A DNA stretch of 64,000 nt from NCBI GenBank assembly GCA_009914755.4, contig CP068257.2:6752001-6816000 (forward strand). The letters run 5' to 3'. Shown piece after piece: positions 31,501-64,000 of the stretch. The notes beneath the pieces were generated by a model. It worked only from the letters and a program-made list of their open reading frames with translations, was not told the DNA's origin and ran no database searches. The position numbers were made by a program, and so were the translations under genes. This DNA is from the human T2T-CHM13v2.0 reference genome, Homo sapiens. Position 1 is the stretch's first letter; every line of letters starts with the position of its first letter.

Positions 31501-32003
31501 GAATTAACCCGAGTGGAATGGAATGGAATGGAATGGAGTGGAATGGAATGGAATGGAATGGAATGGAATGGAATGGAAAGGAATCAACCCGAGTGGAATG
31601 CAATGAAATGGAATGCAATGGAATGGAATGGTATGGAATCAACCCTAGTGAAATGGTATGGAATGGAATGGAATGGAACAGAATGGAATGGAATCATCCC
31701 GAATGGAATGGAAAGGAATGGAGAGGAATGGTACGGTATGGAATGGAATGGAAAGGAATCAACCCGAAGGTTATGGAATGGAATGCAATGGAATGGAATG
31801 GAATCAACCCGAGTGGAATGCAATCGAATAAAATGGAATGGAATGAAACGGAAAGGAACGGAATGGAACGGAATTGAAAGGAATGGAATCAAACCGAGTG
31901 GAAAGGAATGGAATGGAATGAAATGCAATGGTGTGGAATGGAACGGATAGGAATAACATGCAATCGACTTTAGTGGAATGGTATGGAATGGAATAATATG
32001 CAA
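16600..32003. repeat. Higher-order repeat unit copy 1 (~15.4 kb; A block ~16.6-24.1 kb plus B block 24.08-32.0 kb). The first ~0.6 kb is diverged relative to later copies.
   Basis: 17185-24075 matches 40475-47396 at offset ~23,290-23,321. 24076-32003 matches 47397-55285 at offset 23,321-23,346. The match holds over long identical stretches. Examples are the spurious ORF translations 24228-24791 vs 47549-48112 and 24816-25424 vs 48137-48745, each identical over 187-202 codons. Confidence 0.7.
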
Positions 32004-38000: not shown

Positions 38001-39890
38001 TTCAACCCGAGTGGAAAGTAATGGATTGGAATGGAATGGAAAGGAATGGAATGGAATCAACACAAATGGAATGGAATGGAATGGAAAGGAATGGATTGCA
38101 ATGGAATGGAATGGAATGGAATGGAATGGAATGGAATGGAAATGAAAGGAATGGAATGCAATGGAATGGAATGGAATGCAATGGAATGGAATGGAATGCA
38201 ATGGAATGGAATGGAATGAAATGAAATAAACCCGAATGGAATGGAATGGAATGGAATGCAATGCCATGGAATGGAATGGAATGGAGTGGAATGGAATAAA
38301 CAGAAGTGGAATGAATTGGAATGGAATGAAATGGAATGGAATGGAATGGAATGGACTGGAATGAAATAAACCCGAGTAGAATGGAACGGAATGGATTGGA
38401 ATGGAAAGGAATTGAATAAACTGGAATGGAATGAAATGGAATGGAAGGGAGTGGAATGGAATGGAATACAATGGAATCAACACGAGTGGAATGCAATGCA
38501 ACGGAAGGGAAAGGAATGGAATGGAACGGAACCAACCCGAGTGGAGTGGAATAAAGTGGAATGGAATGGAGTATGATCAACCTGAGTGGAACGGAATGCA
38601 ATGGAATGGAATGGAATGGAATGGTTTCAACCAGAGTGGAATGGAATGGAATGGAATGGAACGGAATGGAATGCAATGGACGTAACTGGAATGGAATGGA
38701 ATGGAATGGAATGGAATGGAATGGAATGGAACGGAATCAACATGAGTCAAATGGAATGGAATGGAATGGAATGGAATGGAATGGAATGGAGTCAACACGA
38801 ATGGACTGGAACGTAATGGAATGGAATGGAATGGAATGGTATGGTTTGGAATGAAATGGAAAGGAACGGAATGGAATCAACCCAAGTGGAGTGGAATAGA
38901 ATGGAATGGAAGGGAATGAAGACGAGTCAAATGGAATGGAATGGAATGCAATGGAAAGGAATGGAATGCAATGAAATGGAATGGAATGGAATGGAATGGA
39001 ATGCAATGGAATGGAATGGAATTCAGTGAAATGGAATGGAAAAGAATGGAATGGAATAGAATGGAATCTACTGTAATGGAATGGAAACAACCTGAGTGGA
39101 ATGGAATGCAATGGAATGGAATGGAATGGAATGGAATGGAATGGAATGGAAAGGAACGGAATGTAAAGGAATGGAATGGAATCAACCCGACTGGAATGGA
39201 ATGGAATGGAAAGGAATGAATGGAATGGAATGGAATGGAATGGAATGGAATGGAATGGAATGGAATGGAATTGTATGGAATACAATGATATGGAATTGAA
39301 TGGAATGGAACGGAATGGAACGGAATGGAATGGAATGGACCCCAATGGAATGGAATGGAATGGAATGGATTGGAATGGAATGGAACGGAATTAACCCGAG
39401 TGGAATGGAATGGAATGGAATGGAGTGGAATGGAATGGAATGGAATGGAATGGAATGGAATGGAAAGGAATCAACCCGAGTGGAATGCAATGAAATGGAA
39501 TGCAATGGAATGGAATGGTATGGAATCAACCCTAGTGAAATGGTATGGAATGGAATGGAATGGAACAGAATGGAATGGAATCATCCCGAATGGAATGGAA
39601 AGGAATGGAGAGGAATGGTACGGTATGGAATGGAATGGAAAGGAATCAACCCGAAGGTTATGGAATGGAATGCAATGGAATGGAATGGAATCAACCCGAG
39701 TGGAATGCAATCGAATAAAATGGAATGGAATGAAACGGAAAGGAACGGAATGGAACGGAATTGAAAGGAATGGAATCAAACCGAGTGGAAAGGAATGGAA
39801 TGGAATGAAATGCAATGGTGTGGAATGGAATGGAAAGGAATAACATGCAATCGACTTTAGTGGAATGGTATGGAATGGAATAATATGCAA
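32004..39890. repeat. Internally deleted copy of the 15.4-kb unit (7.9 kb). It comprises an A block compressed to ~1.0 kb (32004-~33000) and a B block lacking ~1.4 kb (~33000-39890).
   Basis: 32110-32600 resembles the A start at 39905-40400. 32630-33000 resembles the A tail near 47100-47400. The B start module (GATTAGAAACTAATGG) appears at ~32990 as at 24076 and 47397. 33850-39890 matches 26200-32003 at offset 7821-7887, with identical 174-codon stretches (34227-34751 vs 26406-26930). Confidence 0.6.
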
Positions 39891-42800
39891 TCAACTTTGG
39901 TGGAATGGTATAGAATGGAATGGAATGGAAAGGAATCAACCTGAAGGGTATGGAATGGAATGGAATGGAATGGAATGGAATGGAATTGAATTGAATGGAA
40001 TGGAATGGAATGGAATCAACCAGAGGGGAATGCAATGAAATGAAATGGAATGGAATGGAACGGAAAGCAATGGAACGGAACGGAATTGAATGGAATGGAA
40101 TGAACCCGAGTGGAAAGGAATGGAATGGAATGGAATGGAATGGAATGGAATAACATGCAATCAACTTTGGTGGAATGGTATGGAATGGAATGGAATGGAA
40201 TGGAATCGAATGGAATGGAATCAACCCGAGTGGAATGCAATGGAATGAAAAGGAATGGAATGGAACGGAACGGAACGGAACGGAACGGAATGGAATGGAA
40301 TGGAATCAACCCGAGGGGAAAAGAATGGAATGGAATGGAATGGAATGGAATGGAATGGAATGGAATGGAATGGAATAAAAGGGCATGGAATGGAATGGAA
40401 TCATCCCGAGGGGAATGGAATGGAATGGAATGGAATGGAATGGAATGGAATGGAATGGAATGGAATCAACCTGAGTTGAACGGAATGGAATGGAATGGAA
40501 TGGAATGGAATGGAATGGTATCAACCAGAGTGGAATGGAATGGAATTGAATGGAATGGAACGGAATGGAATGCAATGGAATCAACTGGAATGGAATGGAA
40601 TTGAATGAAATGGAATGGAATCAACCTCAGTCAAATAGAATGGAATGGAATGGAATGGAATGGAATGGAATGGAATGGAATGGAATGGAATGGAATGGAA
40701 GGGAAAGGAACGGAATGGAATCAACCCGAGTGGAATGGAATGGAATGGAATGGAATCCACCCGAGTGGAATGGAATGGAATGGAATGCAATGGAATTGAA
40801 CGGAATATAATGGAATTAAATGGAATCATCCCGTGTGGAACAGATTGGTATCTAATGCAATGGAATGGAATGGAACAGAACGGAATGGAATGGAAGAATA
40901 GATTGAATCCAATTGGAATTGAATGGAATGGAATGGATTGGAAAGGAATGGAATGGATTGCAATGGATTGGAATGGAAAGGAATGGATTCAGCCCGAGTG
41001 GAATGTAATGGATTGGAATGGAATGGAATGGAATGGAATGGAATGGAATGGTATGGAATGAAATGGAAAGGAACGGAACAGAATCAACACAAGTGGAATG
41101 GAATGGAAAGGAATGCAATTGAATGGAATGGAATGGAATGGAATGGAATGGAATGGAATGGAATGGAATCAACCCGAGTGGAGTAGAATGGAATGGAATG
41201 GAATGAACCGCAGTGGAATGGAATGGAATGGAATGCAATAGAATGGAATGGAATGGAAAGGAATGGAATTCAATGGAATCAACCCGAGTGGAATGGAATG
41301 GTATGGAATGCAATGGAATGGAGTGGAACAGAACGGAATGGAATGGAATGGAAATGATTGAATCTGAGTGGAATTGAATGGAAGGGAAAGCATTGGAAAG
41401 GAATGGAAAGGATTCAACCCGAGTGGAATGTAATGGATTGGAATGGAGTGGAATGTAATGGAATGGATTGGAATGGAATGGAATCAACACAAATGGAAAG
41501 GAATGGAATGGAATGGAATAGAATGGAAAGGAATGGAATGCAATGGAATGGAATGGAATGGAATGAAATGGAATAAACCCGAATGGAATGGAATGGAATG
41601 GAATGGAATGGAATGAATTGGAATAAACCCGAGTGGAATGGAATGGAATGGAATGGAAAGGAATGGAATGGAGTGGAATGGAATGGACTGGAATGGAATG
41701 CAAAGTAATGGAATGGAACCAACCCGACTGGAATGGAATGGAATGGAATGGAAAGGAATGAATGGAATGGAATGGAATGGAATGGTATGGAATGCAATCG
41801 GATGGAATTCAATGGAATGGAACACAATGGAATGGAATGGAATGGAATGGGCCCCAATGGAATGTAATGTAATGGAATGGATTGGAATGGAATGGAATGG
41901 AATTAACCCGAGTGGAATGGAATGTAATGGAATGGAATGGAATGGAATCAACCCGAGTGGAAAGGAATGGCATGCAATCGAATGGAATGGAATGGAATCA
42001 ATCCAAGAGGAATGGAATGGAATGAAATGGAAAGCAATGGAATGGAATGGAATGGAATGGAATGGAATGGAATGGAATGGAATGGAATGGAATCAACCCG
42101 AGTGGAAAGGAATGGCATGCAATCGAATGGAATGGAATGGAATGGAATCAATCCAAGAGGAATGGAATGGAATGGAATGGAATGCAATGGAATGGAATGG
42201 AATGGAATGGAATGGAATGGAATGGAAATGAATCAAACCGAGTGGAATGTAATGTAATGTAATGGAATGGAATGGAATTTAAACAATGCAATGCAATGGT
42301 ATCAACTGGAATGGAATGCATTGGAATCGAATGGAATGGAATCACCCAGAGTTTAAAGGAATGGAATGGAATGGAATGGAATGGAATGGAATGGAATGGA
42401 AAGGAATGGAATGGAATGGAAACTACAGGAACCGAAAAGAAAGAACCCGAGTGGAATGGAATGCAATGCAATGGAAAGGAATGGAATGGAATGGAATGGA
42501 ACGGAATAAAATGGAATGGAATGGAATCATCCCGAGTGGAATGGAATGACATGGAATGCAATAGAATGGAATGGAACAGAACGGAATGAAATGGAATGGA
42601 ATAGATTGAATGCGAGTGGAAATGAATGGAACGGAATGGATTGGAATGGAATGGAATGGATTGAAGTGGAATGGAATGGAATCAACACGAATGGAATGGA
42701 ACGGAATGGCAGGGATTGGAAAGGAACGGAATGGAATCAACCCGAGTGGAATGGAATGGAATGGAATCCACCCGATTGGAATGAAATGGAATGCAATGTA

Positions 42801-45800
42801 ATGGAATGCATTGGAATCAACTCGAGTGGAATGGAATGGAATGGAATGGAATGGAATGGAATGGAATGGAAGAGAATCGAATCCAATGGAATCAACTGGA
42901 ATGGAATGGAATGGAATGGAATGGAATGGAATGGAATGGAATGGAATCAATCCGGGTGGAATGGAATGGAATGGAATGGAGTGCACTGGAATTAAATGGA
43001 GTGGAATGGAATGGAATGGAATCAACCCGTATGGAATGGAACGGAATGGAATGGAAAGGAATGGAATGGAATGGAATGGAATGGAATGGAATGGAATGGA
43101 ACAGAATAGAATGGAATCAGCCCAAATGGGATGGAATGGAATGGAATGGAATGGAATGGAATGGAATGGAATGGAATGGAATGGAATGGAATGGAATGGA
43201 ATACAACAAAATGGAAACAACCCGTGTGGAATGGCATGGAATGGAAAGGACTTGAATATAATGGAATGGATTGGTATCAACCCGATTAGAAATTAATGGA
43301 ATGGAATGTAATAGAATTAAATGGAATGGAATAGAAAGGAATGGAATGGAACGGAATGGAATGGAATGGAATGCAATGGAATCTACACGAGTGGAATGGA
43401 ATGGAATGGAATTTAATTGAATGGAATGGAATAGAATGGTATGGAATCAACCGGAGTGGAATGGTAAAGAATGCAATGTACTGGAACGGAATGGAATGGA
43501 ATAAAATGGATTGGAATGGAAAGGAAACAACCCGAGTTGAATGGAATGGAATGGAATGGAATGGAATGGAATGGAATGGAATGGAATGGAATCAACCCGA
43601 GTGGAGTAGAATGGAATGGAATGGAATGGAATGAACCGCAGTGGAATGGAATGGAATGGAATGCAATAGAATGGAATGGAATGGAATGGAATGGAATTCA
43701 ATGGAATCACCCAGAGTGGAGTGGAATGGTATGGAATGCAATGGAATGGAGTGGAACAGAACGGAATGGAATGGAATGGAAATGATTGAATCTGAGTGGA
43801 ATTGAATGGAAGAGAAAGCATTGGAAAGGAATGGAAAGGATTCAACCCGAATGGAATGGAATGGATTGGAATGGAGTGGAATGGAATGGAATGGAATGGA
43901 ATGGAATCAACACAAATGGAATGGAATGGAATGGAAGGGAATGGAATGCAATGGAATGGAATGGAATGGAATGGAATTAAATGGAATAAACCGGAATGTA
44001 ATGTAATGGAATGGAATGGAATGGAATGGAATGGAATGGAATGGAATGGAAACTACTGGAACCGAATGGAAAGAACCCGAGTGGAATGGAATGGAATGGA
44101 ATGGAATGGAATGGAATGGAATGGAACGGAATAAAATGGAATGGAATGGAATCATCCCGAGTGGAATGGAATGGCATGGAATGCAATAGAATGGAATGGA
44201 ACAGAACGGAATGAAATGGAATGGAATAGATTGAATGCGAGTGGAATTGAATGGAACGGAATGGATTGGAACGGAATGGAATGGATTGAAGTGGAATGGA
44301 ATGGAATCAACACGAATGGAATGGAACGGAATGGCAGGGATTGGAAAGGAACGGAATGGAATCAACCCGAGTGGAATGGAATGGAATGGAATCCACCCGA
44401 TTGGAATGAAATGGAATGGAATGTAATGGAATGCATTGGAATCAACTCGAGTGGAATGGAATGGAATGGAATGGAATGGAATGGAACAGAAATGAATCCA
44501 ATGGAATCAACTGGAATGGAATGGAATGGAATGGAATGGAATGGAATGGAATGGAATGGAATCAATCCGGGTGGAATGGAATGGAATGGAATGGAGTGCA
44601 CTGGAATTGAATGGAGTGGAATGGAATGGAATGGAATCAACCCGTATGGAATGGAACGGAATGGAATGGAAAGGAATGGAATGGAATGGAATGGAATGGA
44701 ACAGAATAGAATGGAATCAGCCCAAATGGGATGGAATGGAATGGAATGGAATGGAATGGAATGGAATGGAATGGAATGGAATGGAATGGAATTCTATGGA
44801 ATCAACCGTAGTGTAATGTAAATGAATGGAATATAATGGAATGGAATGGAAGGGAATGGAATCAACCCAAGTGCATTGGAATGGAATGGAATGCAACGGA
44901 ATCAACCCGAGAGTAATGGAATGGAAAGCAATTGAATGGAATGGAAAGGAATGGAATGGAATCAACCCGACAGGAATGGAATGGAATGGTATGGAATCAA
45001 ACCGAGTGGAATGGAATGGAATGGAATGGAAAGGAATGCAATGGAATGGAATGGAAAGGAATGGAATGGAATGGAATGGAAAGAACCCGAATGGAAAGGA
45101 ATGGAATGGAATTGAATGGATTGGAATGGAATGGAATTGAATCAACCCGAGTGGAATGGAATGGAATCGAGTGGAGTTGAATGGAATGGAATGGAATGGA
45201 ATAAAATAAACCCGAATGGAATGGAATGGAATGGAATGGAATGGAATGGAATGGAAAGGAATCAACCTGAGTGGAGTGGAATGGAATGGAATTTCATGAA
45301 ATGGAATGGAATGGAATGGTATGGAATAAACACGAGTGGAATGGTATGGAATGCAAAGGAATGGAACGGAATGGAATGGAATAAAATGGAATGGAATGGA
45401 ATGGAATCAACTCGAGTGAAATGGAATGGAATGAAATGGAATGGAAAGGAATGAAATCAACCGGAGTGCAGTGGAATGGAATGGAGTGGAATGGAATGGA
45501 ATGGAATGGAATGGAATGGAATGGAATGGAATGGAATGGCATGGAATGGAATGCAATGGAATACAACAAAATGGAAACAACCCGTGTGGAATGGCATGGA
45601 ATGGAAAGGACTTGAATATAATGGAATGGATTGGTATCAACCCGATTAGAAATTAATGGAATGGAATGTAATAGAATTAAATGGAATGGAATAGAATGGA
45701 ATGGAACGGAACGGAATGGAATGGAATGGAATGGAATGGAATGGAATGGAATGGAATGGAATGGAATGGAATGGAATCTACACGAGTGGAATGGAATGGA

Positions 45801-48800
45801 ATGGAATTTAATGGAATGGAATGGAATAGAATGGTATGGAATCAACCCGAGTGGAATGGTAAAGAATGCAATGTAATGGAACGGAATAGAATGGAATAAA
45901 ATGGATTGGAATGGAATGGAAACAACCCGAGTTGAATGGCATGGAATGGAATGGAATAGAATGGAATGGAATGGAGTAACCGGAGAGGAATGGAATGGAA
46001 TGCAGTGTAATGGAATGGAATAGAATGGAATGGAATGAAATGGAATGGAATAGAATGAAATGGAAAGGAATGGAATAGAAACAACCCGAGTGGAATGGAA
46101 AGGAATGGAATCCACCCGAGTGGAATGGAATGCAATGGAATGGAACTGAATATAATGGAATTGAAAGGAATCATCCCGAGTGGAATGGAATGGTATCTAA
46201 TGCAATGGAGTGGAATGGAACAGAACGGAATGGAATGGAAAGAATAGATTGAATCCAAGTGGAATTGAATGGAATGAAATGGATTGGAAAGGAATGGAAT
46301 GGATTGGTATGGAAAGGAATGGATTTAACCCGAGTGGAATGTAATGGATTGGAATGGAGTGGAATGGAATGGAATGGAATCAACACGAATGGAATGGAAC
46401 GGAATGGAACGGAATGGAATGGAATGGTATGGAATGAAATAGAAAGGAACGGAATAGAATCAACCCAAGTGGAATGGAATTGAATGGAATGGAAGGGAAT
46501 CAACACGAGTGGAATTGAATGGAAAGGAATGCAATGGAATGGAATGGAATGGAATGGAATGGAATGGAATCAACCCGAGTGGAATGGAATGGAATGGAAT
46601 GCAATAGAATGGAATGGAATGGAATGGAATGGAATGGAATGGAATGGAATGGAATGGAATTCAATGGAATCAAACCGAGTGGAATGGAATGCTATGGAAT
46701 GCAATGGAATGGAGTGGAACAGAACGGAATGGAATTGAATGGAATTGACTGAATCCGAGTGGAATTGAACGGAAGGGAATGCATTGGAATGGAATGGAAA
46801 GGATTCAACCCGAGTGGAATGAAATGGAATGGAGTGGAGTGGAAAGGAATGGTATGGATTGGAATGGAATGGAATGGAATCAACACAAAGGGAATGGAAT
46901 GGAATGGAATAGAATGGAAAGGAATGGAATGGAATGGTATGGAATGCAATGTAATGGAATGGAATGGAATGAAATGGAATAAACCCGAATGTAATGGAAT
47001 GGAATGGAATGGAACGGATTGGAATGGAATGGAATGGAATGGAATGGAATGGAATGGAATGGAGTGGAATGGAATGGAAATCAGTCAAACCGAGTGGAAT
47101 GTAATGGAATGGAATGGAATGGAATGGAAAGAGTGCAAAGCAATGCTATCAAAGGGAATGAAATGCATTGGAATGGAATGGAATGGAATCACCCTGAGTG
47201 GAAAGGAATGCAGTGGAATGGAATGGAAAGGATGGAATGGAAAGGAAACTAATGGAACGGAATGGAAACAACCCGAGTGGCATGGAATGCATTGGAATGG
47301 AATGGAATGGAATGGAATGGAATGGAATACAACAAAATGGAAACAACACGAGTGAAATGGCATGGAATGGAAATGACTTGAATATAATGGAATGGATTGG
47401 AATCAACCCGATTAGAAACTAATGGAATGGAATGGAATGGAATGGAACGGAATGGAATCTACACATGTGGAATGGAAAGTAATGGAATTAAATGGATTGG
47501 AATGGAATGTAATGGAATGGAACGGAATGGAATGGAATGGAATGGAATCTACCCGAGTGGAATGGAATGGAATGGAATTTCATGGAATGAAATGGAATAG
47601 AATGGTATGGAATCAACCCGAGTGGAATGGTAAAGAATGCAATGTAATGGAACGGAATGGAATGGAATAAAATGGAATGGAATGGAATGGAAACAACCCG
47701 AGTTGAATGGAATGGAATGGAATGGAATGGAATAACCGGAGAAAAATGGAATGGAATGCAGTGTAATGGAATGGAATAGAATGGAATGGAATGGAAAGGA
47801 ATGGAATAGAATGAAATGGAAAGGAATGGAATAGAAACAACCCGAGTGGAATGGAATGGAATGGATTCCACCCGAGTGGAATGGAATGGAATGGAATGGA
47901 AAGGAATACAATGGAATGGAATGGAACCGTCCCGAGTGGAATGGAATGGTATGGAATGCAATAGAATGTAATGGAACAGAACGGAATGAAATGGAATGGA
48001 ATAGATTGAATGCGAGTGGAATTGAATGGAACGGAATGGATTGGAATGGAATGGAATGGATTGGAGTGGAATGGAATGGAATCAACACGAATGGAACGGA
48101 ATGGAATGGCATGGATTGGAAAGGAACGGAATGGAATCAACCCAAGTGGAATGGAATGGAATGGAATCCACCCGATTGGAATGAAATGGAATGGAATGGA
48201 ATGGAATGTATTGGAATCAACTCGAGTGGAATGGAATGGAATGGAATGGAATGGAATGGAATGGAATGGAATGGAACAGAATCGAATCCAATGGAATCAA
48301 CTGGAATGGAATGGAATGGAATGGAATAAATCCGGGTGGAATGGAATGGAATGTAATGGAGTGCACTGGAATTGAATGGAGTGGAATGGAATGGAATGGA
48401 ATGGAAAGGAATGGAATCAACCCGTATGGAATGGAACGGAATGGAATGGAAAGGAAGGGAATGGAATGGAATGGAACAGAATAGAATGGAATCAGCCCGA
48501 ATGGGATGGAATGGAATGGAATGGAATAGAATGGAATGGAATGGAATGGAATGGAATGGAATGGAATGGAATTCTATGGAATCAACCGTAGTGTAATGTA
48601 AATGAATGGAATATAATGGAATGGAATGGAAGGGAATGGAATCAACCCAAGTGCATTGGAATGGAATGGAATGCAACGGAATCAACCCGAGAGTAATGGA
48701 ATGGAAAGGAATGGAATGGAATGGAAAGAAATGGAATGGAATCAACCCGACAGGAATGGAATGGAATGGTATGGAATCAAACCGAGTGGAATGGAATGGA

Positions 48801-51800: not shown

Positions 51801-54800
51801 AATGGAATGGAATGGAACGGAATGGAATAGAATGGAAAGGAGTGGAATGCAATTGAATGGAATGAAATGGAATAAACCCGAATGGAATGGAATGGAATGG
51901 AATGGAATTGAGTGGAATGGAATAAACACCAGTGGAATGAAATGGAATGGAATGGAATGGAATGAAATCAACACGAGTAGAACGGAACGGAATGGAATGG
52001 AATGGAAAGGAATGGAATCAACTGGAATGGAATGAAATGGAATGGAATGGAGTGGAATGTAATGGAATGCAATGGAATCAACAAGAGTGAAATGCAAAGG
52101 AATGGAATGGAATGGAATAGAATGGAATGGAATGGAATACAACAAAATGGAAAGAACTCGAGTGGAATGGCAAGGAATGGAAAGGACTTGAATAAAATGG
52201 AATGGATTGGAATCAACCCGATTAGAAACTAGTGGAAAGGAATGGAATGGAATGGAATCTGCCCGAGTGGAATGGAATGGAATGGAATTGAATGGAATGG
52301 AATGGAGTGGAATAGAATAGAATGGAATGGAATGGAACGGAATGGAAGGGAATTGAATGGAATAGAATGGAATCGAATCTACCCGAGTGGAATGGAATGG
52401 AAAGGAATTTAATGGAATGGAAAGGAATGGAATGGAATGGAATGGAATGGAATGGAATGGAATGGAATGGAATAAACACCAGTGGAATGAAATGGAATGG
52501 AATGGAATGGAATGCAATGGAATGGAATGGAATGGAGTGGAATGGAATAAACACCAGTGGAATGAAATGGAATGGAATGGAATGGAATGCAATGGAATGG
52601 AATGGAATGGAATGGAATGGAATGGAAACTACTGGAATGGAATGGAAACAACCCGAGTGGAATGGAATGCAATGGAATGGAATGGAATGGAATGACACGG
52701 AATGGAATGGAATGGACTGGAATGGAATTTAAAGGAATGGAATGGAATCAACCCGACTGGAATGGAATGGAATGTAAAGCAGTGAATGGAATGTAATGGA
52801 ATGAAATGGAATGGAATGGAATGGTATGCAATGCAGTGGAATGGATTTGAATGGAATGGAATGGAACGGAACGGAACGGAATGGAATGGAATGGAATGGA
52901 ATGGAATGGAATGGACACCAATGGAATGGAATGGAATTGAATGGAATGGAATGGAATGGATTGGAATGGATGGGAATGGAATGGAACGGAATTAACCGGA
53001 GTGGAATGCAATGGAATGGAATGGAGTGGAATGGAATCAACCCGAGTGGAATGGAATGGAATGGAATGGAATGGAATGGAATGGAATGGAATGGAATGGA
53101 ATGGAATGGAATCAACACGAATGGACTGGAACGAAATGGAATGGAATGGATTGGAATGGAATGGAATGGAATGGAATGGAATGGAATGGAATGGAATAGT
53201 ATGGTATGGAATGAAATGGAAAGAAACAGAATGGAATCAACCCAAGTGGAGTGGAATAGAATGGAATGGAAGGGAATCAATACGAGTCAAATGGAATGGA
53301 GTGGAATGCTATGGAATGGAATGGAATGAAATGAAATGGAATGTAATGGAATGGAATGGAATTCAAGGGAATCAATCCGAGTGGAATGGAATGGTATGGA
53401 ATGCAATGGAATGGAGTGGAACAGAACGGAATGGAATGGAATGGAATTGATTGAATCCGAATGGAATTGAATGGAAGGGAATGCATTGGAATGGAATAGA
53501 AAGGATTCAACCCGAGTGGAAAGTAATGGATTGGAATGGAATGGAAAGGAATGGAATGGAATCAACACAAATGGAATGGAATGGAATGGAAAGGAATGGA
53601 TTGCAATGGAATGGAATGGAATGGAATGGAATGGAATGGAATGGAAATGAAAGGAATGGAATGCAATGGAATGGAATGGAATGCAATGGAATGGAATGGA
53701 ATGCAATGGAATGGAATGGAATGAAATGAAATAAACCCGAATGGAATGGAATGGAATGGAATGCAATGCCATGGAATGGAATGGAATGGAGTGGAATGGA
53801 ATAAACAGAAGTGGAATGAATTGGAATGGAATGAAATGGAATGGAATGGAATGGAATGGACTGGAATGAAATAAACCCGAGTAGAATGGAACGGAATGGA
53901 TTGGAATGGAAAGGAATTGAATAAACTGGAATGGAATGAAATGGAATGGAAGGGAGTGGAATGGAATGGAATACAATGGAATCAACACGAGTGGAATGCA
54001 ATGCAACGGAAGGGAAAGGAATGGAATGGAACGGAACCAACCCGAGTGGAGTGGAATAAAGTGGAATGGAATGGAGTATGATCAACCTGAGTGGAACGGA
54101 ATGCAATGGAATGGAATGGAATGGAATGGTTTCAACCAGAGTGGAATGGAATGGAATGGAATGGAACGGAATGGAATGCAATGGAGTCAACACGAATGGA
54201 CTGGAACGTAATGGAATGGAATGGAATGGAATGGTATGGTTTGGAATGAAATGGAAAGGAACGGAATGGAATCAACCCAAGTGGAGTGGAATAGAATGGA
54301 ATGGAAGGGAATGAAGACGAGTCAAATGGAATGGAATGGAATGCAATGGAAAGGAATGGAATGCAATGAAATGGAATGGAATGGAATGGAATGGAATGCA
54401 ATGGAATGGAATGGAATTCAGTGAAATGGAATGGAAAAGAATGGAATGGAATAGAATGGAATCTACTGTAATGGAATGGAAACAACCTGAGTGGAATGGA
54501 ATGCAATGGAATGGAATGGAATGGAATGGAATGGAATGGAATGGAAAGGAACGGAATGTAAAGGAATGGAATGGAATCAACCCGACTGGAATGGAATGGA
54601 ATGGAAAGGAATGAATGGAATGGAATGGAATGGAATGGAATGGAATGGAATGGAATGGAATGGAATTGTATGGAATACAATGATATGGAATTGAATGGAA
54701 TGGAACGGAATGGAACGGAATGGAATGGAATGGACCCCAATGGAATGGAATGGAATGGAATGGATTGGAATGGAATGGAACGGAATTAACCCGAGTGGAA

Positions 54801-55285
54801 TGGAATGGAATGGAATGGAGTGGAATGGAATGGAATGGAATGGAATGGAATGGAATGGAAAGGAATCAACCCGAGTGGAATGCAATGAAATGGAATGCAA
54901 TGGAATGGAATGGTATGGAATCAACCCTAGTGAAATGGTATGGAATGGAATGGAATGGAACAGAATGGAATGGAATCATCCCGAATGGAATGGAAAGGAA
55001 TGGAGAGGAATGGTACGGTATGGAATGGAATGGAAAGGAATCAACCCGAAGGTTATGGAATGGAATGCAATGGAATGGAATGGAATCAACCCGAGTGGAA
55101 TGCAATCGAATAAAATGGAATGGAATGAAACGGAAAGGAACGGAATGGAACGGAATTGAAAGGAATGGAATCAAACCGAGTGGAAAGGAATGGAATGGAA
55201 TGAAATGCAATGGTGTGGAATGGAATGGAAAGGAATAACATGCAATCGACTTTAGTGGAATGGTATGGAATGGAATAATATGCAA
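39891..55285. repeat. Higher-order repeat unit copy 3 (15,395 bp; A block 39891-47396 plus B block 47397-55285).
   Basis: 39300-48600 is near-identical to 54695-64000 at offset 15,385-15,395. This was checked at nucleotide level around 39266 vs 54661. Multi-hundred-codon identical spurious ORFs also confirm it (40852-41703 vs 56247-57098; 41638-42231 vs 57033-57626). Confidence 0.8.
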
Positions 55286-58200
55286 TCAACTTTGGTGGAA
55301 TGGTATAGAATGGAATGGAATGGAAAGGAATCAACCTGAAGGGTATGGAATGGAATGGAATGGAATGGAATGGAATGGAATTGAATTGAATGGAATGGAA
55401 TGGAATGGAATCAACCAGAGGGGAATGCAATGAAATGAAATGGAATGGAATGGAACGGAAAGCAATGGAACGGAACGGAATTGAATGGAATGGAATGAAC
55501 CCGAGTGGAAAGGAATGGAATGGAATGGAATGGAATGGAATGGAATAACATGCAATCAACTTTGGTGGAATGGTATGGAATGGAATGGAATGGAATGGAA
55601 TCGAATGGAATGGAATCAACCCGAGTGGAATGCAATGGAATGAAAAGGAATGGAATGGAACGGAACGGAACGGAACGGAACGGAATGGAATGGAATGGAA
55701 TCAACCCGAGGGGAAAAGAATGGAATGGAATGGAATGGAATGGAATGGAATGGAATGGAATGGAATGGAATAAAAGGGCATGGAATGGAATGGAATCATC
55801 CCGAGGGGAATGGAATGGAATGGAATGGAATGGAATGGAATGGAATGGAATGGAATGGAATGGAATCAACCTGAGTTGAACGGAATGGAATGGAATGGAA
55901 TGGAATGGAATGGAATGGTATCAACCAGAGTGGAATGGAATGGAATTGAATGGAATGGAACGGAATGGAATGCAATGGAATCAACTGGAATGGAATGGAA
56001 TTGAATGAAATGGAATGGAATCAACCTCAGTCAAATAGAATGGAATGGAATGGAATGGAATGGAATGGAATGGAATGGAATGGAATGGAATGGAAGGGAA
56101 AGGAACGGAATGGAATCAACCCGAGTGGAATGGAATGGAATGGAATGGAATCCACCCGAGTGGAATGGAATGGAATGGAATGCAATGGAATTGAACGGAA
56201 TATAATGGAATTAAATGGAATCATCCCGTGTGGAACAGATTGGTATCTAATGCAATGGAATGGAATGGAACAGAACGGAATGGAATGGAAGAATAGATTG
56301 AATCCAATTGGAATTGAATGGAATGGAATGGATTGGAAAGGAATGGAATGGATTGCAATGGATTGGAATGGAAAGGAATGGATTCAGCCCGAGTGGAATG
56401 TAATGGATTGGAATGGAATGGAATGGAATGGAATGGAATGGAATGGTATGGAATGAAATGGAAAGGAACGGAACAGAATCAACACAAGTGGAATGGAATG
56501 GAAAGGAATGCAATTGAATGGAATGGAATGGAATGGAATGGAATGGAATGGAATGGAATGGAATCAACCCGAGTGGAGTAGAATGGAATGGAATGGAATG
56601 AACCGCAGTGGAATGGAATGGAATGGAATGCAATAGAATGGAATGGAATGGAAAGGAATGGAATTCAATGGAATCAACCCGAGTGGAATGGAATGGTATG
56701 GAATGCAATGGAATGGAGTGGAACAGAACGGAATGGAATGGAATGGAAATGATTGAATCTGAGTGGAATTGAATGGAAGGGAAAGCATTGGAAAGGAATG
56801 GAAAGGATTCAACCCGAGTGGAATGTAATGGATTGGAATGGAGTGGAATGTAATGGAATGGATTGGAATGGAATGGAATCAACACAAATGGAAAGGAATG
56901 GAATGGAATGGAATAGAATGGAAAGGAATGGAATGCAATGGAATGGAATGGAATGGAATGAAATGGAATAAACCCGAATGGAATGGAATGGAATGGAATG
57001 GAATGGAATGAATTGGAATAAACCCGAGTGGAATGGAATGGAATGGAATGGAAAGGAATGGAATGGAGTGGAATGGAATGGACTGGAATGGAATGCAAAG
57101 TAATGGAATGGAACCAACCCGACTGGAATGGAATGGAATGGAATGGAAAGGAATGAATGGAATGGAATGGAATGGAATGGTATGGAATGCAATCGGATGG
57201 AATTCAATGGAATGGAACACAATGGAATGGAATGGAATGGAATGGGCCCCAATGGAATGTAATGTAATGGAATGGATTGGAATGGAATGGAATGGAATTA
57301 ACCCGAGTGGAATGGAATGTAATGGAATGGAATGGAATGGAATCAACCCGAGTGGAAAGGAATGGCATGCAATCGAATGGAATGGAATGGAATCAATCCA
57401 AGAGGAATGGAATGGAATGAAATGGAAAGCAATGGAATGGAATGGAATGGAATGGAATGGAATGGAATGGAATGGAATGGAATGGAATCAACCCGAGTGG
57501 AAAGGAATGGCATGCAATCGAATGGAATGGAATGGAATGGAATCAATCCAAGAGGAATGGAATGGAATGGAATGGAATGCAATGGAATGGAATGGAATGG
57601 AATGGAATGGAATGGAATGGAAATGAATCAAACCGAGTGGAATGTAATGTAATGTAATGGAATGGAATGGAATTTAAACAATGCAATGCAATGGTATCAA
57701 CTGGAATGGAATGCATTGGAATCGAATGGAATGGAATCACCCAGAGTTTAAAGGAATGGAATGGAATGGAATGGAATGGAATGGAATGGAATGGAAAGGA
57801 ATGGAATGGAATGGAAACTACAGGAACCGAAAAGAAAGAACCCGAGTGGAATGGAATGCAATGCAATGGAAAGGAATGGAATGGAATGGAATGGAACGGA
57901 ATAAAATGGAATGGAATGGAATCATCCCGAGTGGAATGGAATGACATGGAATGCAATAGAATGGAATGGAACAGAACGGAATGAAATGGAATGGAATAGA
58001 TTGAATGCGAGTGGAAATGAATGGAACGGAATGGATTGGAATGGAATGGAATGGATTGAAGTGGAATGGAATGGAATCAACACGAATGGAATGGAACGGA
58101 ATGGCAGGGATTGGAAAGGAACGGAATGGAATCAACCCGAGTGGAATGGAATGGAATGGAATCCACCCGATTGGAATGAAATGGAATGCAATGTAATGGA

Positions 58201-61200
58201 ATGCATTGGAATCAACTCGAGTGGAATGGAATGGAATGGAATGGAATGGAATGGAATGGAATGGAAGAGAATCGAATCCAATGGAATCAACTGGAATGGA
58301 ATGGAATGGAATGGAATGGAATGGAATGGAATGGAATGGAATCAATCCGGGTGGAATGGAATGGAATGGAATGGAGTGCACTGGAATTAAATGGAGTGGA
58401 ATGGAATGGAATGGAATCAACCCGTATGGAATGGAACGGAATGGAATGGAAAGGAATGGAATGGAATGGAATGGAATGGAATGGAATGGAACAGAATAGA
58501 ATGGAATCAGCCCAAATGGGATGGAATGGAATGGAATGGAATGGAATGGAATGGAATGGAATGGAATGGAATGGAATGGAATGGAATACAACAAAATGGA
58601 AACAACCCGTGTGGAATGGCATGGAATGGAAAGGACTTGAATATAATGGAATGGATTGGTATCAACCCGATTAGAAATTAATGGAATGGAATGTAATAGA
58701 ATTAAATGGAATGGAATAGAAAGGAATGGAATGGAACGGAATGGAATGGAATGGAATGCAATGGAATCTACACGAGTGGAATGGAATGGAATGGAATTTA
58801 ATTGAATGGAATGGAATAGAATGGTATGGAATCAACCGGAGTGGAATGGTAAAGAATGCAATGTACTGGAACGGAATGGAATGGAATAAAATGGATTGGA
58901 ATGGAAAGGAAACAACCCGAGTTGAATGGAATGGAATGGAATGGAATGGAATGGAATGGAATGGAATGGAATGGAATCAACCCGAGTGGAGTAGAATGGA
59001 ATGGAATGGAATGGAATGAACCGCAGTGGAATGGAATGGAATGGAATGCAATAGAATGGAATGGAATGGAATGGAATGGAATTCAATGGAATCACCCAGA
59101 GTGGAGTGGAATGGTATGGAATGCAATGGAATGGAGTGGAACAGAACGGAATGGAATGGAATGGAAATGATTGAATCTGAGTGGAATTGAATGGAAGAGA
59201 AAGCATTGGAAAGGAATGGAAAGGATTCAACCCGAATGGAATGGAATGGATTGGAATGGAGTGGAATGGAATGGAATGGAATGGAATGGAATCAACACAA
59301 ATGGAATGGAATGGAATGGAAGGGAATGGAATGCAATGGAATGGAATGGAATGGAATGGAATTAAATGGAATAAACCGGAATGTAATGTAATGGAATGGA
59401 ATGGAATGGAATGGAATGGAATGGAATGGAATGGAATGGAAACTACTGGAACCGAATGGAAAGAACCCGAGTGGAATGGAATGGAATGGAATGGAATGGA
59501 ATGGAATGGAATGGAACGGAATAAAATGGAATGGAATGGAATCATCCCGAGTGGAATGGAATGGCATGGAATGCAATAGAATGGAATGGAACAGAACGGA
59601 ATGAAATGGAATGGAATAGATTGAATGCGAGTGGAATTGAATGGAACGGAATGGATTGGAACGGAATGGAATGGATTGAAGTGGAATGGAATGGAATCAA
59701 CACGAATGGAATGGAACGGAATGGCAGGGATTGGAAAGGAACGGAATGGAATCAACCCGAGTGGAATGGAATGGAATGGAATCCACCCGATTGGAATGAA
59801 ATGGAATGGAATGTAATGGAATGCATTGGAATCAACTCGAGTGGAATGGAATGGAATGGAATGGAATGGAATGGAACAGAAATGAATCCAATGGAATCAA
59901 CTGGAATGGAATGGAATGGAATGGAATGGAATGGAATGGAATGGAATGGAATCAATCCGGGTGGAATGGAATGGAATGGAATGGAGTGCACTGGAATTGA
60001 ATGGAGTGGAATGGAATGGAATGGAATCAACCCGTATGGAATGGAACGGAATGGAATGGAAAGGAATGGAATGGAATGGAATGGAATGGAACAGAATAGA
60101 ATGGAATCAGCCCAAATGGGATGGAATGGAATGGAATGGAATGGAATGGAATGGAATGGAATGGAATGGAATGGAATGGAATGGAATTCTATGGAATCAA
60201 CCGTAGTGTAATGTAAATGAATGGAATATAATGGAATGGAATGGAAGGGAATGGAATCAACCCAAGTGCATTGGAATGGAATGGAATGCAACGGAATCAA
60301 CCCGAGAGTAATGGAATGGAAAGCAATTGAATGGAATGGAAAGGAATGGAATGGAATCAACCCGACAGGAATGGAATGGAATGGTATGGAATCAAACCGA
60401 GTGGAATGGAATGGAATGGAATGGAAAGGAATGCAATGGAATGGAATGGAAAGGAATGGAATGGAATGGAATGGAAAGAACCCGAATGGAAAGGAATGGA
60501 ATGGAATTGAATGGATTGGAATGGAATGGAATTGAATCAACCCGAGTGGAATGGAATGGAATCGAGTGGAGTTGAATGGAATGGAATGGAATGGAATAAA
60601 ATAAACCCGAATGGAATGGAATGGAATGGAATGGAATGGAATGGAATGGAAAGGAATCAACCTGAGTGGAGTGGAATGGAATGGAATTTCATGAAATGGA
60701 ATGGAATGGAATGGTATGGAATAAACACGAGTGGAATGTTATGGAATGCAAAGGAATGGAACGGAATGGAATGGAATAAAATGGAATGGAATGGAATGGA
60801 ATCAACTCGAGTGAAATGGAATGGAATGAAATGGAATGGAAAGGAATGAAATCAACCGGAGTGCAGTGGAATGGAATGGAGTGGAATGGAATGGAATGGA
60901 ATGGAATGGAATGGAATGGAATGGAATGGAATGGCATGGAATGGAATGCAATGGAATACAACAAAATGGAAACAACCCGTGTGGAATGGCATGGAATGGA
61001 AAGGACTTGAATATAATGGAATGGATTGGTATCAACCCGATTAGAAATTAATGGAATGGAATGTAATAGAATTAAATGGAATGGAATAGAATGGAATGGA
61101 ACGGAACGGAATGGAATGGAATGGAATGGAATGGAATGGAATGGAATGGAATGGAATGGAATCTACACGAGTGGAATGGAATGGAATGGAATTTAATGGA

Positions 61201-64000
61201 ATGGAATGGAATAGAATGGTATGGAATCAACCCGAGTGGAATGGTAAAGAATGCAATGTAATGGAACGGAATAGAATGGAATAAAATGGATTGGAATGGA
61301 ATGGAAACAACCCGAGTTGAATGGCATGGAATGGAATGGAATAGAATGGAATGGAATGGAGTAACCGGAGAGGAATGGAATGGAATGCAGTGTAATGGAA
61401 TGGAATAGAATGGAATGGAATGAAATGGAATGGAATAGAATGAAATGGAAAGGAATGGAATAGAAACAACCCGAGTGGAATGGAAAGGAATGGAATCCAC
61501 CCGAGTGGAATGGAATGCAATGGAATGGAACTGAATATAATGGAATTGAAAGGAATCATCCCGAGTGGAATGGAATGGTATCTAATGCAATGGAGTGGAA
61601 TGGAACAGAACGGAATGGAATGGAAAGAATAGATTGAATCCAAGTGGAATTGAATGGAATGAAATGGATTGGAAAGGAATGGAATGGATTGGTATGGAAA
61701 GGAATGGATTTAACCCGAGTGGAATGTAATGGATTGGAATGGAGTGGAATGGAATGGAATGGAATCAACACGAATGGAATGGAACGGAATGGAACGGAAT
61801 GGAATGGAATGGTATGGAATGAAATAGAAAGGAACGGAATAGAATCAACCCAAGTGGAATGGAATTGAATGGAATGGAAGGGAATCAACACGAGTGGAAT
61901 TGAATGGAAAGGAATGCAATGGAATGGAATGGAATGGAATGGAATGGAATGGAATCAACCCGAGTGGAATGGAATGGAATGGAATGCAATAGAATGGAAT
62001 GGAATGGAATGGAATGGAATGGAATGGAATGGAATGGAATGGAATTCAATGGAATCAAACCGAGTGGAATGGAATGCTATGGAATGCAATGGAATGGAGT
62101 GGAACAGAACGGAATGGAATTGAATGGAATTGACTGAATCCGAGTGGAATTGAACGGAAGGGAATGCATTGGAATGGAATGGAAAGGATTCAACCCGAGT
62201 GGAATGAAATGGAATGGAGTGGAGTGGAAAGGAATGGTATGGATTGGAATGGAATGGAATGGAATCAACACAAAGGGAATGGAATGGAATGGAATAGAAT
62301 GGAAAGGAATGGAATGGAATGGTATGGAATGCAATGTAATGGAATGGAATGGAATGAAATGGAATAAACCCGAATGTAATGGAATGGAATGGAATGGAAC
62401 GGATTGGAATGGAATGGAATGGAATGGAATGGAATGGAATGGAATGGAGTGGAATGGAATGGAAATCAGTCAAACCGAGTGGAATGTAATGGAATGGAAT
62501 GGAATGGAATGGAAAGAGTGCAAAGCAATGCTATCAAAGGGAATGAAATGCATTGGAATGGAATGGAATGGAATCACCCTGAGTGGAAAGGAATGCAGTG
62601 GAATGGAATGGAAAGGATGGAATGGAAAGGAAACTAATGGAACGGAATGGAAACAACCCGAGTGGCATGGAATGCATTGGAATGGAATGGAATGGAATGG
62701 AATGGAATGGAATACAACAAAATGGAAACAACACGAGTGAAATGGCATGGAATGGAAATGACTTGAATATAATGGAATGGATTGGAATCAACCCGATTAG
62801 AAACTAATGGAATGGAATGGAATGGAATGGAACGGAATGGAATCTACACATGTGGAATGGAAAGTAATGGAATTAAATGGATTGGAATGGAATGTAATGG
62901 AATGGAACGGAATGGAATGGAATGGAATGGAATCTACCCGAGTGGAATGGAATGGAATGGAATTTCATGGAATGAAATGGAATAGAATGGTATGGAATCA
63001 ACCCGAGTGGAATGGTAAAGAATGCAATGTAATGGAACGGAATGGAATGGAATAAAATGGAATGGAATGGAATGGAAACAACCCGAGTTGAATGGAATGG
63101 AATGGAATGGAATGGAATAACCGGAGAAAAATGGAATGGAATGCAGTGTAATGGAATGGAATAGAATGGAATGGAATGGAAAGGAATGGAATAGAATGAA
63201 ATGGAAAGGAATGGAATAGAAACAACCCGAGTGGAATGGAATGGAATGGATTCCACCCGAGTGGAATGGAATGGAATGGAATGGAAAGGAATACAATGGA
63301 ATGGAATGGAACCGTCCCGAGTGGAATGGAATGGTATGGAATGCAATAGAATGTAATGGAACAGAACGGAATGAAATGGAATGGAATAGATTGAATGCGA
63401 GTGGAATTGAATGGAACGGAATGGATTGGAATGGAATGGAATGGATTGGAGTGGAATGGAATGGAATCAACACGAATGGAACGGAATGGAATGGCATGGA
63501 TTGGAAAGGAACGGAATGGAATCAACCCAAGTGGAATGGAATGGAATGGAATCCACCCGATTGGAATGAAATGGAATGGAATGGAATGGAATGTATTGGA
63601 ATCAACTCGAGTGGAATGGAATGGAATGGAATGGAATGGAATGGAATGGAATGGAATGGAACAGAATCGAATCCAATGGAATCAACTGGAATGGAATGGA
63701 ATGGAATGGAATAAATCCGGGTGGAATGGAATGGAATGTAATGGAGTGCACTGGAATTGAATGGAGTGGAATGGAATGGAATGGAATGGAAAGGAATGGA
63801 ATCAACCCGTATGGAATGGAACGGAATGGAATGGAAAGGAAGGGAATGGAATGGAATGGAACAGAATAGAATGGAATCAGCCCGAATGGGATGGAATGGA
63901 ATGGAATGGAATAGAATGGAATGGAATGGAATGGAATGGAATGGAATGGAATGGAATGGAATTCTATGGAATCAACCGTAGTGTAATGTAAATGAATGGA
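55286..64000. repeat. Higher-order repeat unit copy 4, truncated by the window edge (A block 55286-62781; B block begins at 62782).
   Basis: Offset-15,385-15,395 match to 39891-48600. 62782-64000 matches 47397-48615 and 24076-25290 (for example the identical 67-codon stretches at 62782, 47397 and 24076). Confidence 0.8.

What the first reader, a model, noticed from the sequence alone, without database searches (positions are those of the whole stretch)
39300..64000. Near-identical 15.4-kb tandem higher-order repeat (A+B) of HSat3
Two successive ~15.4-kb units (39.9-55.3 kb and 55.3-64 kb) are essentially identical over many kilobases. They differ by a few substitutions and by 5- or 10-bp indels: the offset drifts 15,395 to 15,385 to 15,390 to 15,395 to 15,385. 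A third copy lies ~23.3 kb upstream (16.6-32.0 kb). Such a long, homogenised higher-order unit indicates very recent unequal-exchange or gene-conversion homogenisation. It is also a useful array-specific marker. HSat3 subfamilies (HSat3A/B subtypes in T2T-CHM13) are distinguished by higher-order periodicity of this kind.
Basis: seen in the sequence. Interest (0 to 1): 0.55.

Follow-up and report, generated by a model that had tools for sequence, protein, structure and literature searches.

The report
Recent 15.4-kb duplication in pentamer satellite
The window is one unbroken stretch of (GGAAT)n "satellite 3"-type DNA in which a 15.4-15.5 kb block was copied head-to-tail very recently, with an older copy nearby; this is real, but it is the ordinary, already described behaviour of this kind of satellite.

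Summary
Two head-to-tail copies, T1 (33880-49404) and T2 (49405-64000, cut by the window end), differ by only 3 clean point substitutions in about 14.4 kb. They also differ by about 17 length changes, all multiples of 5 bp, including one of about 110 bp.

A third copy, U1 (about 17137-32620), is 99.8% identical by clean substitutions and exactly one unit long. It is not in tandem register: a 1.25-kb unrelated stretch separates it from the pair, which resumes mid-unit. The first 17 kb lacks the 15.4-kb period and shows only older 3.5-5.8 kb repeats at 88-93% identity.

All breakpoints lie in perfect (GGAAT)n tracts, and the small indels cluster in those same tracts.

- **Best reading:** a local "nested tandem repeat" expansion in an HSat3-type array. 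It arose by misaligned exchange or template switching between perfect pentamer tracts, followed by slippage.
- **Untestable here:** species, chromosome, subfamily and read support.
HSat3 subfamilies are not defined by periodicity, and nothing indicates gene conversion.

Interest is low.

The parts
1..17136 (+). Older, more diverged HSat3-type flank without the 15.4-kb period. Its internal repeats have 3.5-5.8 kb offsets at 88-93% identity.
   Evidence: The table shows no 15.4, 23.3 or 38.7-kb signal before about 17 kb. One search gives sub-window spectrum peaks at 3.5, 4.3 and 5.7 kb. In one search, 9624-11505 matches 13188-15085 at 92.5% and 1081-1747 matches 6871-7507 at 93.6%.
17137..32620 (+). 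U1: the older, displaced copy, exactly one unit long. Both ends fall in the pentamer tract that forms the head-to-tail junction in T1 and T2.
   Evidence: Searches show offsets of 23.3 and 38.7 kb to T1 and T2. One search finds 25 clean U1-specific substitutions in 14,370 columns (0.174%). Searches place the boundaries.
32629..33879 (+). J: a 1.25-kb HSat3-type stretch that is not part of the unit. It separates U1 from the tandem pair.
   Evidence: In one search its best matches elsewhere in the window reach only 85-92% over stretches of 200 bp or more. Two shorter stretches of ~165 bp reach 95%. Searches give the junction sequences.
33880..49404 (+). T1: the first copy of the near-identical tandem pair (15,525 bp). 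It starts at the unit phase equivalent to 26064 in U1.
49405..64000 (+). T2: the second copy of the tandem pair, cut by the window end about 0.9 kb short of a full unit.
   Evidence: It differs from T1 by 3 clean substitutions and about 17 indels that are multiples of 5 bp.
40412..40466 (+). Head-to-tail junction of the unit inside T1: a perfect (GGAAT)11 tract. The U1-end sequence (ATCATCCCGAGGG) lies on its left and the U1-start sequence (CAACCTGAGTTGAACGG) on its right.
   Evidence: One search shows a hybrid profile: 100/99/93% to the U1 end, then 100% to the U1 start. One search gives the sequence.
55807..55866 (+). The same head-to-tail junction in T2, here a 60-bp perfect pentamer tract.
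33880..33923 (+). Perfect (GGAAT)n tract at the J|T1 breakpoint. Its equivalents are 26058-26107 in U1 and 49399-49448 at the T1|T2 boundary.
38675..38785 (+). About 110 bp present in T1 and U1 (30789-30893) but deleted in T2 at about 54179. It shifts the period from 15505 to 15395.
   Evidence: pattern XX-.

Best explanation
This is a stretch of HSat3-type pentameric satellite, (GGAAT)n with interspersed CAACCCGAGT-like 10-mers. Within it a 15.4-15.5 kb block has been amplified locally. The T2T centromere paper calls such units nested tandem repeats.

**Shown**
- Three copies with the tree (U1,(T1,T2)).
- The head-to-tail junction of the unit is a perfect (GGAAT)n tract, flanked on one side by the U1-end sequence and on the other by the U1-start sequence.
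- The other two breakpoints also lie in perfect pentamer tracts.
- The small differences between copies are almost all gains or losses of whole pentamers, concentrated in the longest perfect tracts.

**Inferred mechanism**
- Misaligned exchange joined two perfect (GGAAT)n tracts about 15.46 kb apart and created the tandem unit. This could be unequal sister-chromatid or homologue crossing-over, or replication template switching.
- A second, much more recent exchange between copies made T1 and T2.
- Since then, replication slippage at about 36 long perfect tracts per unit has changed tract lengths faster than point mutation.

**Rough ages**
- These assume a human-like rate of 1.25e-8 per bp per generation, taken from my own knowledge and untested for satellites.
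- T1/T2 would be of the order of 10^4 generations old (3 substitutions, so very imprecise).
- U1 against T would be of the order of 7x10^4 generations old.

No gene, RNA family or transposon lies in the window. Any cellular role would be that of HSat3 heterochromatin in general and was not tested.
For: - **Composition:**
- **Self-similarity and controls:**
- **Copy relationships:**. The U1 branch carries 25 clean substitutions, T1 carries 2 and T2 carries 1. U1-specific changes are Poisson-like along the unit.
- **Junction anatomy:**
- **Indel hot spots:**. Tracts of 40 bp or more cover 12.6% of positions but hold 63-68% of indel events. The median tract is 49 bp at T1/T2 events and 12 bp at random positions.
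- **Recurrent change:** three of the 8 T1/T2 indel sites in the first 8.4 kb also differ in U1 (17361, 19844 and 21429).
- **Period changes across the window:**
- **Literature:** multi-kb units in HSat2,3 are called nested tandem repeats. [quoted passage not shown] Kb-scale higher-order structure covering part or all of GAATG arrays is reported in PMC2588610. Unequal crossover or conversion is the accepted driver (PMC4022460).
Against: - A single unequal crossover between the two tracts flanking U1 predicts flank-U-U-J. The observed order is flank-U-J-(partial U)-U-U. At least three events are needed and their order is unresolved (note).
- Only about 2.9 copies are visible, and the array to the right of 64000 is unseen.
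- There are no reads, so assembly correctness is not verified.
- Clean substitutions are transversion-rich (8 transitions to 17 transversions). This is not what ordinary human germline point mutation gives. Some may be pentamer-variant replacement rather than point mutation, which would weaken the age estimates.
Confidence: 0.8

Rival explanations
1. The 15.4-kb unit is the regular, array-wide higher-order repeat of a particular HSat3 array or subfamily. It is kept homogeneous by ongoing unequal exchange and gene conversion, and the window simply samples it.
For: The tandem pair runs off the right end of the window at full identity, so more copies may follow. T1/T2 are closer to each other than to the edge copy U1, as at the edges of homogenised arrays.
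Against: The first 17 kb lacks the period. U1 is displaced by J and out of register by 7.8 kb. Only 1.95 in-register copies are seen. There are no conversion tracts. Subfamilies are not defined by period. HSat3 periods are reported to vary locally.
Confidence: 0.3
2. This is an assembly artefact. One real 15.4-kb segment, or two haplotypes of it, was laid down twice in tandem by the assembler.
For: Substitution divergence of about 0.02% between T1 and T2 is no larger than typical allelic differences. No read data are available. Satellites are the hardest regions to assemble.
Against: The copies are not identical: 3 clean substitutions, about 17 pentamer indels and a 110-bp deletion. There are no 1-2 bp homopolymer-type indels of the kind noisy consensus would give. 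The T1|T2 boundary is seamless and identical to the continuous sequence in U1 at 26064. An independent older copy shows that the unit really has been duplicated here.
Confidence: 0.07
3. U1 is not a remnant of an in-situ array. It is a single unit inserted beside the array. One route is re-integration of a unit-length extrachromosomal circle opened in the junction pentamer tract. Another is a templated one-unit insertion during replication.
For: U1 is exactly one unit long. Both ends lie in the same (GGAAT)n tract that forms the head-to-tail junction in T1/T2. It is separated from the array by non-unit sequence J.
Against: U1 may instead be the ancestral single copy in its original flanks, since the same geometry is expected of the founder segment of a duplication. 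Breakpoints in long perfect tracts are likely under any mechanism. No pre-insertion allele is available. The comparison with older repeats around the boundaries was indecisive.
Confidence: 0.1

Closest known systems
Nested tandem repeats (NTRs) in human HSat2,3 arrays, as described for T2T-CHM13 (Altemose et al., bioRxiv 10.1101/2021.07.12.452052; e.g. the chr20 HSat3B3 array, Fig. S10)
   Same: It has a pentamer-based satellite with a superimposed multi-kb repeat unit. The period differs between neighbouring parts of one array, and there are patches of recent local expansion at very high identity.
   Different: No published period of 15.4 kb was found in the papers read. The location in CHM13 or any other genome could not be checked. 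Only about 3 copies are visible, too few for NTRprism at default settings, which found no 15.4-kb peak.
Kb-scale higher-order repeats in GAATG arrays: DYZ1/HSat3A6 (about 3.6 kb on Yq12) and the 3.36 and 5.63 kb units at Yq11.1 (PMC2588610; PMC4022460)
   Same: It has long units built from diverged pentamers, visible as sharp lines in stringent dot plots and covering part of an array.
   Different: The unit here is 4-5 times longer. The published top 24-mers of the Y-linked subfamilies 3A3 and 3A6 have 0 exact or 1-mismatch matches, and 0 and 5 matches at 2 mismatches. The 3.5-5.8 kb periods in the left part do not equal the published Y values.
Alpha-satellite higher-order repeat arrays
   Same: Both show between-unit identity far above within-unit identity, more diverged copies toward the edge, and origin by unequal exchange.
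   Different: There is no discrete monomer of fixed length beyond the 5-bp unit. Breakpoints and length changes sit in perfect microsatellite-like tracts. No centromere function is implied.

Membership tests
Human satellite 3 (HSat3) | Built on the (CATTC)n / (GAATG)n pentamer | tested here: met
   TRF finds one period-5 array, 10-63962, with consensus TGGAA. GGAAT occurs 107 times per kb, all on the + strand. The definition comes from PMC4022460.
Human satellite 3 (HSat3) | Distinct from HSat2: lacks the HSat2 23/26-bp CATTCGATTC...GATGAT-type organisation | tested here: met
   ATCGAATGGA occurs 0.38 times per kb and ATCATCGAATGG not at all. The top 24-mers of HSat2A1, 2A2 and 2B have 0 matches even at 2 mismatches.
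Human satellite 3 (HSat3) | Interspersed 10-mer CAACCCGA(A/G)T, the reverse complement of A(T/C)TCGGGTTG. This classical satellite III description is from my own knowledge. | tested here: met
   CAACCCGAGT with up to 1 mismatch occurs 3-12 times per kb in every 1-kb bin, on the + strand only. CAACCCGA[AG][GT] occurs 2.7 times per kb.
Human satellite 3 (HSat3) | Located in human pericentromeric or acrocentric/Y heterochromatin | not testable with these tools
   No human or ape genome is searchable here. Related metagenome contigs (L001-L010) are only 88-94% similar and carry no host label.
A named HSat3 subfamily (A1-A6, B1-B5) | [quoted passage not shown] | tested here: inconclusive
   No exact matches to any of the 14 published top 24-mers. 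At 1 mismatch the counts are B1 9, B3 9, B4 3, B5 3 and A4 3, a weak lean to HSat3B. The full 24-mer list is held only for subfamily 2A1.
Higher-order repeat / nested tandem repeat | Head-to-tail copies of a multi-kb unit that are much more alike than the sub-repeats within a unit | tested here: met
   T1/T2 are 99.98% identical by clean substitutions, against 85-95% for within-unit repeats and a median of 78% at non-paralogous offsets.
Higher-order repeat / nested tandem repeat | A regular period maintained over many successive in-register copies of an array | tested here: not met
   Within the window there are only 1.95 in-register copies. The third copy is displaced by 1.25 kb of other sequence and is 7.8 kb out of phase. 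The first 17 kb has other periods. The array beyond 64000 is unseen.
Strict HOR as defined in the T2T centromere paper | Unit composed of a discrete number of monomers of similar length | tested here: inconclusive
   Unit lengths (15,525 and 15,395 bp) and nearly all indels are multiples of 5. But the unit also contains 10-mers and irregular variants. The T2T authors reserve "NTR" for such HSat2,3 units.

The most novel reading that the evidence does not exclude
The displaced copy U1 is a footprint of a single unit moving beside its array. It is exactly one unit long, both ends lie in the same (GGAAT)n tract that forms the tandem junction, and non-unit DNA separates it from the array. One route would be excision of a unit-length circle and its re-integration in a pentamer tract. 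If so, this would be sequence-level evidence for circle-mediated seeding of new satellite blocks in HSat3.
Probability: 0.08. Interest if true: 0.45.

Novelty: already known. Interest (0 to 1): 0.15.

Why it matters
It matters little beyond bookkeeping. The locus is a clean, small example of how pentameric satellites grow. Perfect (GGAAT)n tracts appear to serve both as sites of ±5-bp slippage and as the joints of 15-kb duplications. In the youngest copies, length changes outnumber point changes about 5 to 1.

The copy-specific variants could serve as markers for checking assemblies or typing haplotypes of this array. They include 34167, 35075, 60739, the 110-bp deletion at about 54179, and the J segment.

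It does not open a new question. Locally varying multi-kb periods in HSat3 are already described.

Tried and rejected
- **Subfamily assignment with the published top 24-mers:** no exact hits. The supplementary list of all subfamily-specific 24-mers is truncated to HSat2A1 in the held copy, so this route was abandoned.
- **Subfamily probe sequences in two later papers:** nothing for HSat3.
- **The Science version of the T2T centromere paper:** not held.
- **NTRprism with default settings (k=6, at least 10 occurrences):** it cannot see a period with 2-3 copies and gave no 15.4-kb peak. Only an adapted version (k of 12 or more, at least 2 occurrences) shows it.
- **Raw pairwise mismatch counts:** these were misleading, giving 16 for T1/T2 and 126-139 for U1 against T. 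Most mismatches sit next to pentamer indels, or in 16836-17136, which is not truly part of U1. My first divergence (0.94%) and ts/tv (0.85) figures were therefore dropped in favour of isolated substitutions.
- **A within-unit BLAST at low stringency:** timed out. A k-mer offset count replaced it.
- **Pattern scan of bacterial/archaeal genomes for a unit motif:** no hits.
- **Pattern scan of metagenome contigs:** ten HSat3-type contigs, none above 95% identity to the window.
- **Rfam:** no family matched.
- **Testing whether U1 was inserted or ancestral:** I compared the boundary regions with five older copies of a recurring motif element. The result was indecisive.
Full report
**What the window is**

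All 64 kb is one uninterrupted pentameric satellite in a single orientation.
- Tandem Repeats Finder reports one period-5 array from 10 to 63962 with consensus TGGAA.
- Exact GGAAT-rotation 5-mers make up 44-59% of the 5-mer positions in every 1-kb bin. None of the reverse-complement 5-mers occur, and G+C is flat at 0.38-0.42.
- The 10-mer CAACCCGAGT, allowing one mismatch, occurs 3-12 times per kb.
- HSat2-type motifs are nearly absent. ATCGAATGGA occurs 0.38 times per kb and ATCATCGAATGG not at all. The three HSat2 marker 24-mers have no match even with two mismatches.
- There is no inversion, no stretch that departs from satellite composition, and no Rfam family.

This fits HSat3 as defined by the CATTC/GAATG pentamer (PMC4022460) plus the classical 10-mer, which I take from my own knowledge. 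Species, chromosome and subfamily could not be tested. None of the 14 published top subfamily 24-mers occurs exactly. One-mismatch hits lean weakly to the B group.

**Checking the observation**

- Rare shared 32-mers concentrate at offsets 15395 and 15385 (3,810 and 2,608) and at 23.3, 38.7 and 7.8 kb.
- The best 50-bp offset bin holds 7,458 shared 32-mers. The maximum is 8 in 20 shuffles of 5-bp blocks.
- 200-bp probes have a median ungapped identity of 1.000 at the 15.4-kb offset. At non-paralogous offsets the median is 0.78 and the 95th percentile 0.84.
- The reported offset drift is reproduced by the indel list.

**Anatomy, corrected**

- The near-identical pair is longer than reported. 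33880-48610 matches 49405-64000, right up to the window end. I call these copies T1 (33880-49404, 15,525 bp) and T2 (49405-64000).
- The upstream copy U1 matches T1 and T2 at offsets of 23.3 and 38.7 kb. Its tail, 26064-32628, also matches 33880-40445 at an offset of 7.8 kb.
- BLAST started the U1 alignment at 16836, but the first ~300 bp are only 75-80% similar. Real homology starts in the (GGAAT)n tract at 17137-17185.
- U1 ends in the tract at 32595-32620.
- In T1 and T2 those two tracts are fused into one, at 40412-40466 and 55807-55866. The U1-end sequence lies on the left and the U1-start sequence on the right.
- U1 is therefore exactly one unit long, and the head-to-tail junction of the unit is a perfect pentamer tract.
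- After U1 comes J (32629-33879). Its best matches in the window over 200 bp or more reach only 85-92%.
- T1 then begins mid-unit, again at a perfect tract (33880-33923).
- The first 17 kb has no 15.4-kb signal. It shows older repeats at offsets of 3.5-5.8 kb and 88-93% identity.
- Inside the unit there are still older partial repeats, at about 1.6 kb (95%) and about 3.8 kb (87-90%).

**How alike the copies are**

Pairwise mismatch counts were inflated by alignment slips next to pentamer indels and by the false first 300 bp of U1. I therefore counted only substitutions flanked by at least 15 identical columns on each side in the three-way alignments. Over 14,370 ungapped homologous columns:
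- the U1 branch has 25, or 0.174%;
- T1 has 2, at 34167 and 35075;
- T2 has 1, at 60739.

The tree is a clean (U1,(T1,T2)). U1-specific changes are evenly spread (1.67 per kb, variance 1.16), so I see no conversion tracts.

T1 and T2 differ by about 17 length changes, all multiples of 5 bp. One is a ~110-bp deletion in T2 at about 54179, where U1 retains the segment. There are no 1-2 bp indels.

**Where the length changes fall**

- Perfect period-5 tracts of 40 bp or more cover 12.6% of positions but hold 63-68% of indel events.
- The median tract is 49 bp at T1/T2 events and 12 bp at random positions.
- The window has 150 such tracts, about 36 per unit.
- The youngest pair has about 5 indels per clean substitution. 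The roughly ten-fold older U1/T comparison has about 30 indels for 25 substitutions.
- Three of eight T1/T2 indel sites in the first 8.4 kb also differ in U1.

This is what fast, recurrent, saturating slippage at a limited set of long tracts would give. The slippage rate itself is inferred, not measured.

**Mechanism**

- *Shown:* the junction and both other breakpoints lie in perfect (GGAAT)n tracts of 26-49 bp.
- *Inferred:* misaligned exchange or template switching between such tracts about 15.46 kb apart created the unit. A later exchange between copies made T1 and T2.
- *Age:* with a genome-average human rate of 1.25e-8 per bp per generation (my own knowledge, untested here), T1/T2 would be of the order of 10^4 generations old. 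U1 against T would be of the order of 7x10^4. Three substitutions give a very wide interval.
- *Unresolved:* the order flank-U1-J-(partial unit)-unit-unit is not what one crossover predicts. It needs at least three events under every model I tried (note).

**Comparison with what is known**

- The T2T centromere study proposes the term nested tandem repeat for multi-kb units in HSat2,3. [quoted passage not shown]
- Its Fig. [quoted passage not shown]
- Earlier work found kb-scale higher-order structure covering part or all of GAATG arrays.
- Subfamilies A1-6 and B1-5 were defined by 5-mer composition and mate-pair clustering. Only some have a consistent long unit.
- I found no paper naming a 15.4-kb HSat3 unit, but that search is far from exhaustive.

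**Related sequences**

- A distinctive 30-mer near the unit boundary, AATARCATGCAATCAACTTTGGTGGAATGG, recurs at 497, 6292, 11020, 14605 and 16793, and three times per unit.
- Scanning public collections for it gave nothing in bacterial/archaeal genomes.
- The metagenome scan gave ten contigs that are HSat3-type but only 88-94% similar to the window. That is the level of the old background layers, not of the unit.

**Verdict**

This is a real and very recent large duplication in an HSat3-type array. An assembly artefact cannot be excluded without reads. It is unlikely, given the copy-specific differences, the absence of noise-type indels and an independent older copy.

Noticed in passing
window 33880-64000 (T1 vs T2) and 17137-32620 (U1): In the youngest pair, whole-pentamer length changes outnumber clean point substitutions about 5 to 1 (about 17 vs 3). 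In the older comparison they are about equal (about 30 vs 25). Events cluster in perfect tracts of 40 bp or more and recur at the same sites, as if about 36 tracts per unit behave like fast microsatellites.
   Followed up: yes
window 17137-32620 vs 33880-64000: The 25 clean U1-specific substitutions are transversion-rich: 8 transitions to 17 transversions, including 7 A/T and 5 C/G. This is unlike the usual ~2:1 germline ratio. Some may be replacement of one pentamer variant by a neighbour rather than point mutation.
   Followed up: partly
window 497, 6292, 11020, 14605, 16793, 31952, 31992, 32342, 39839, 39879, 40149, 55234, 55274, 55544: A non-pentameric 30-mer, AATA(A/G)CATGCAATCAACTTTGGTGGAATGG with up to 2 mismatches, recurs 14 times against 0 expected. 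It marks an older repeated element of several hundred bp. In the unit it sits just upstream of the head-to-tail junction.
   Followed up: partly
window 5065-5600: A small, very recent local tandem duplication. 5065-5350 matches 5315-5600 at 99.3% with a 250-bp offset.
   Followed up: no
window 9624-11505 vs 13188-15085; 1081-1747 vs 6871-7507; 11072-12531 vs 15461-16896: Older duplications in the left flank, at offsets of 3.56, 5.79 and about 4.4 kb and 89-94% identity. Earlier layers of the same process had different unit lengths.
   Followed up: partly
window 57753-58587 vs 59378-60187 (also 19082-19896 vs 20682-21481, and 43993-44792): A ~0.8-kb segment is repeated at a ~1.6-kb offset inside every copy of the unit at about 95% identity. 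It is an intermediate-age nested repeat that predates the 15.4-kb duplication.
   Followed up: no
L001-L010 (e.g. PKQM01001852.1, OOQC01001150.1, ERZ772770 NODE-19264): Public metagenome assemblies contain contigs of 1-3 kb of HSat3-type satellite, 88-94% similar to the window. This is presumably host DNA assembled with the microbes.
   Followed up: partly
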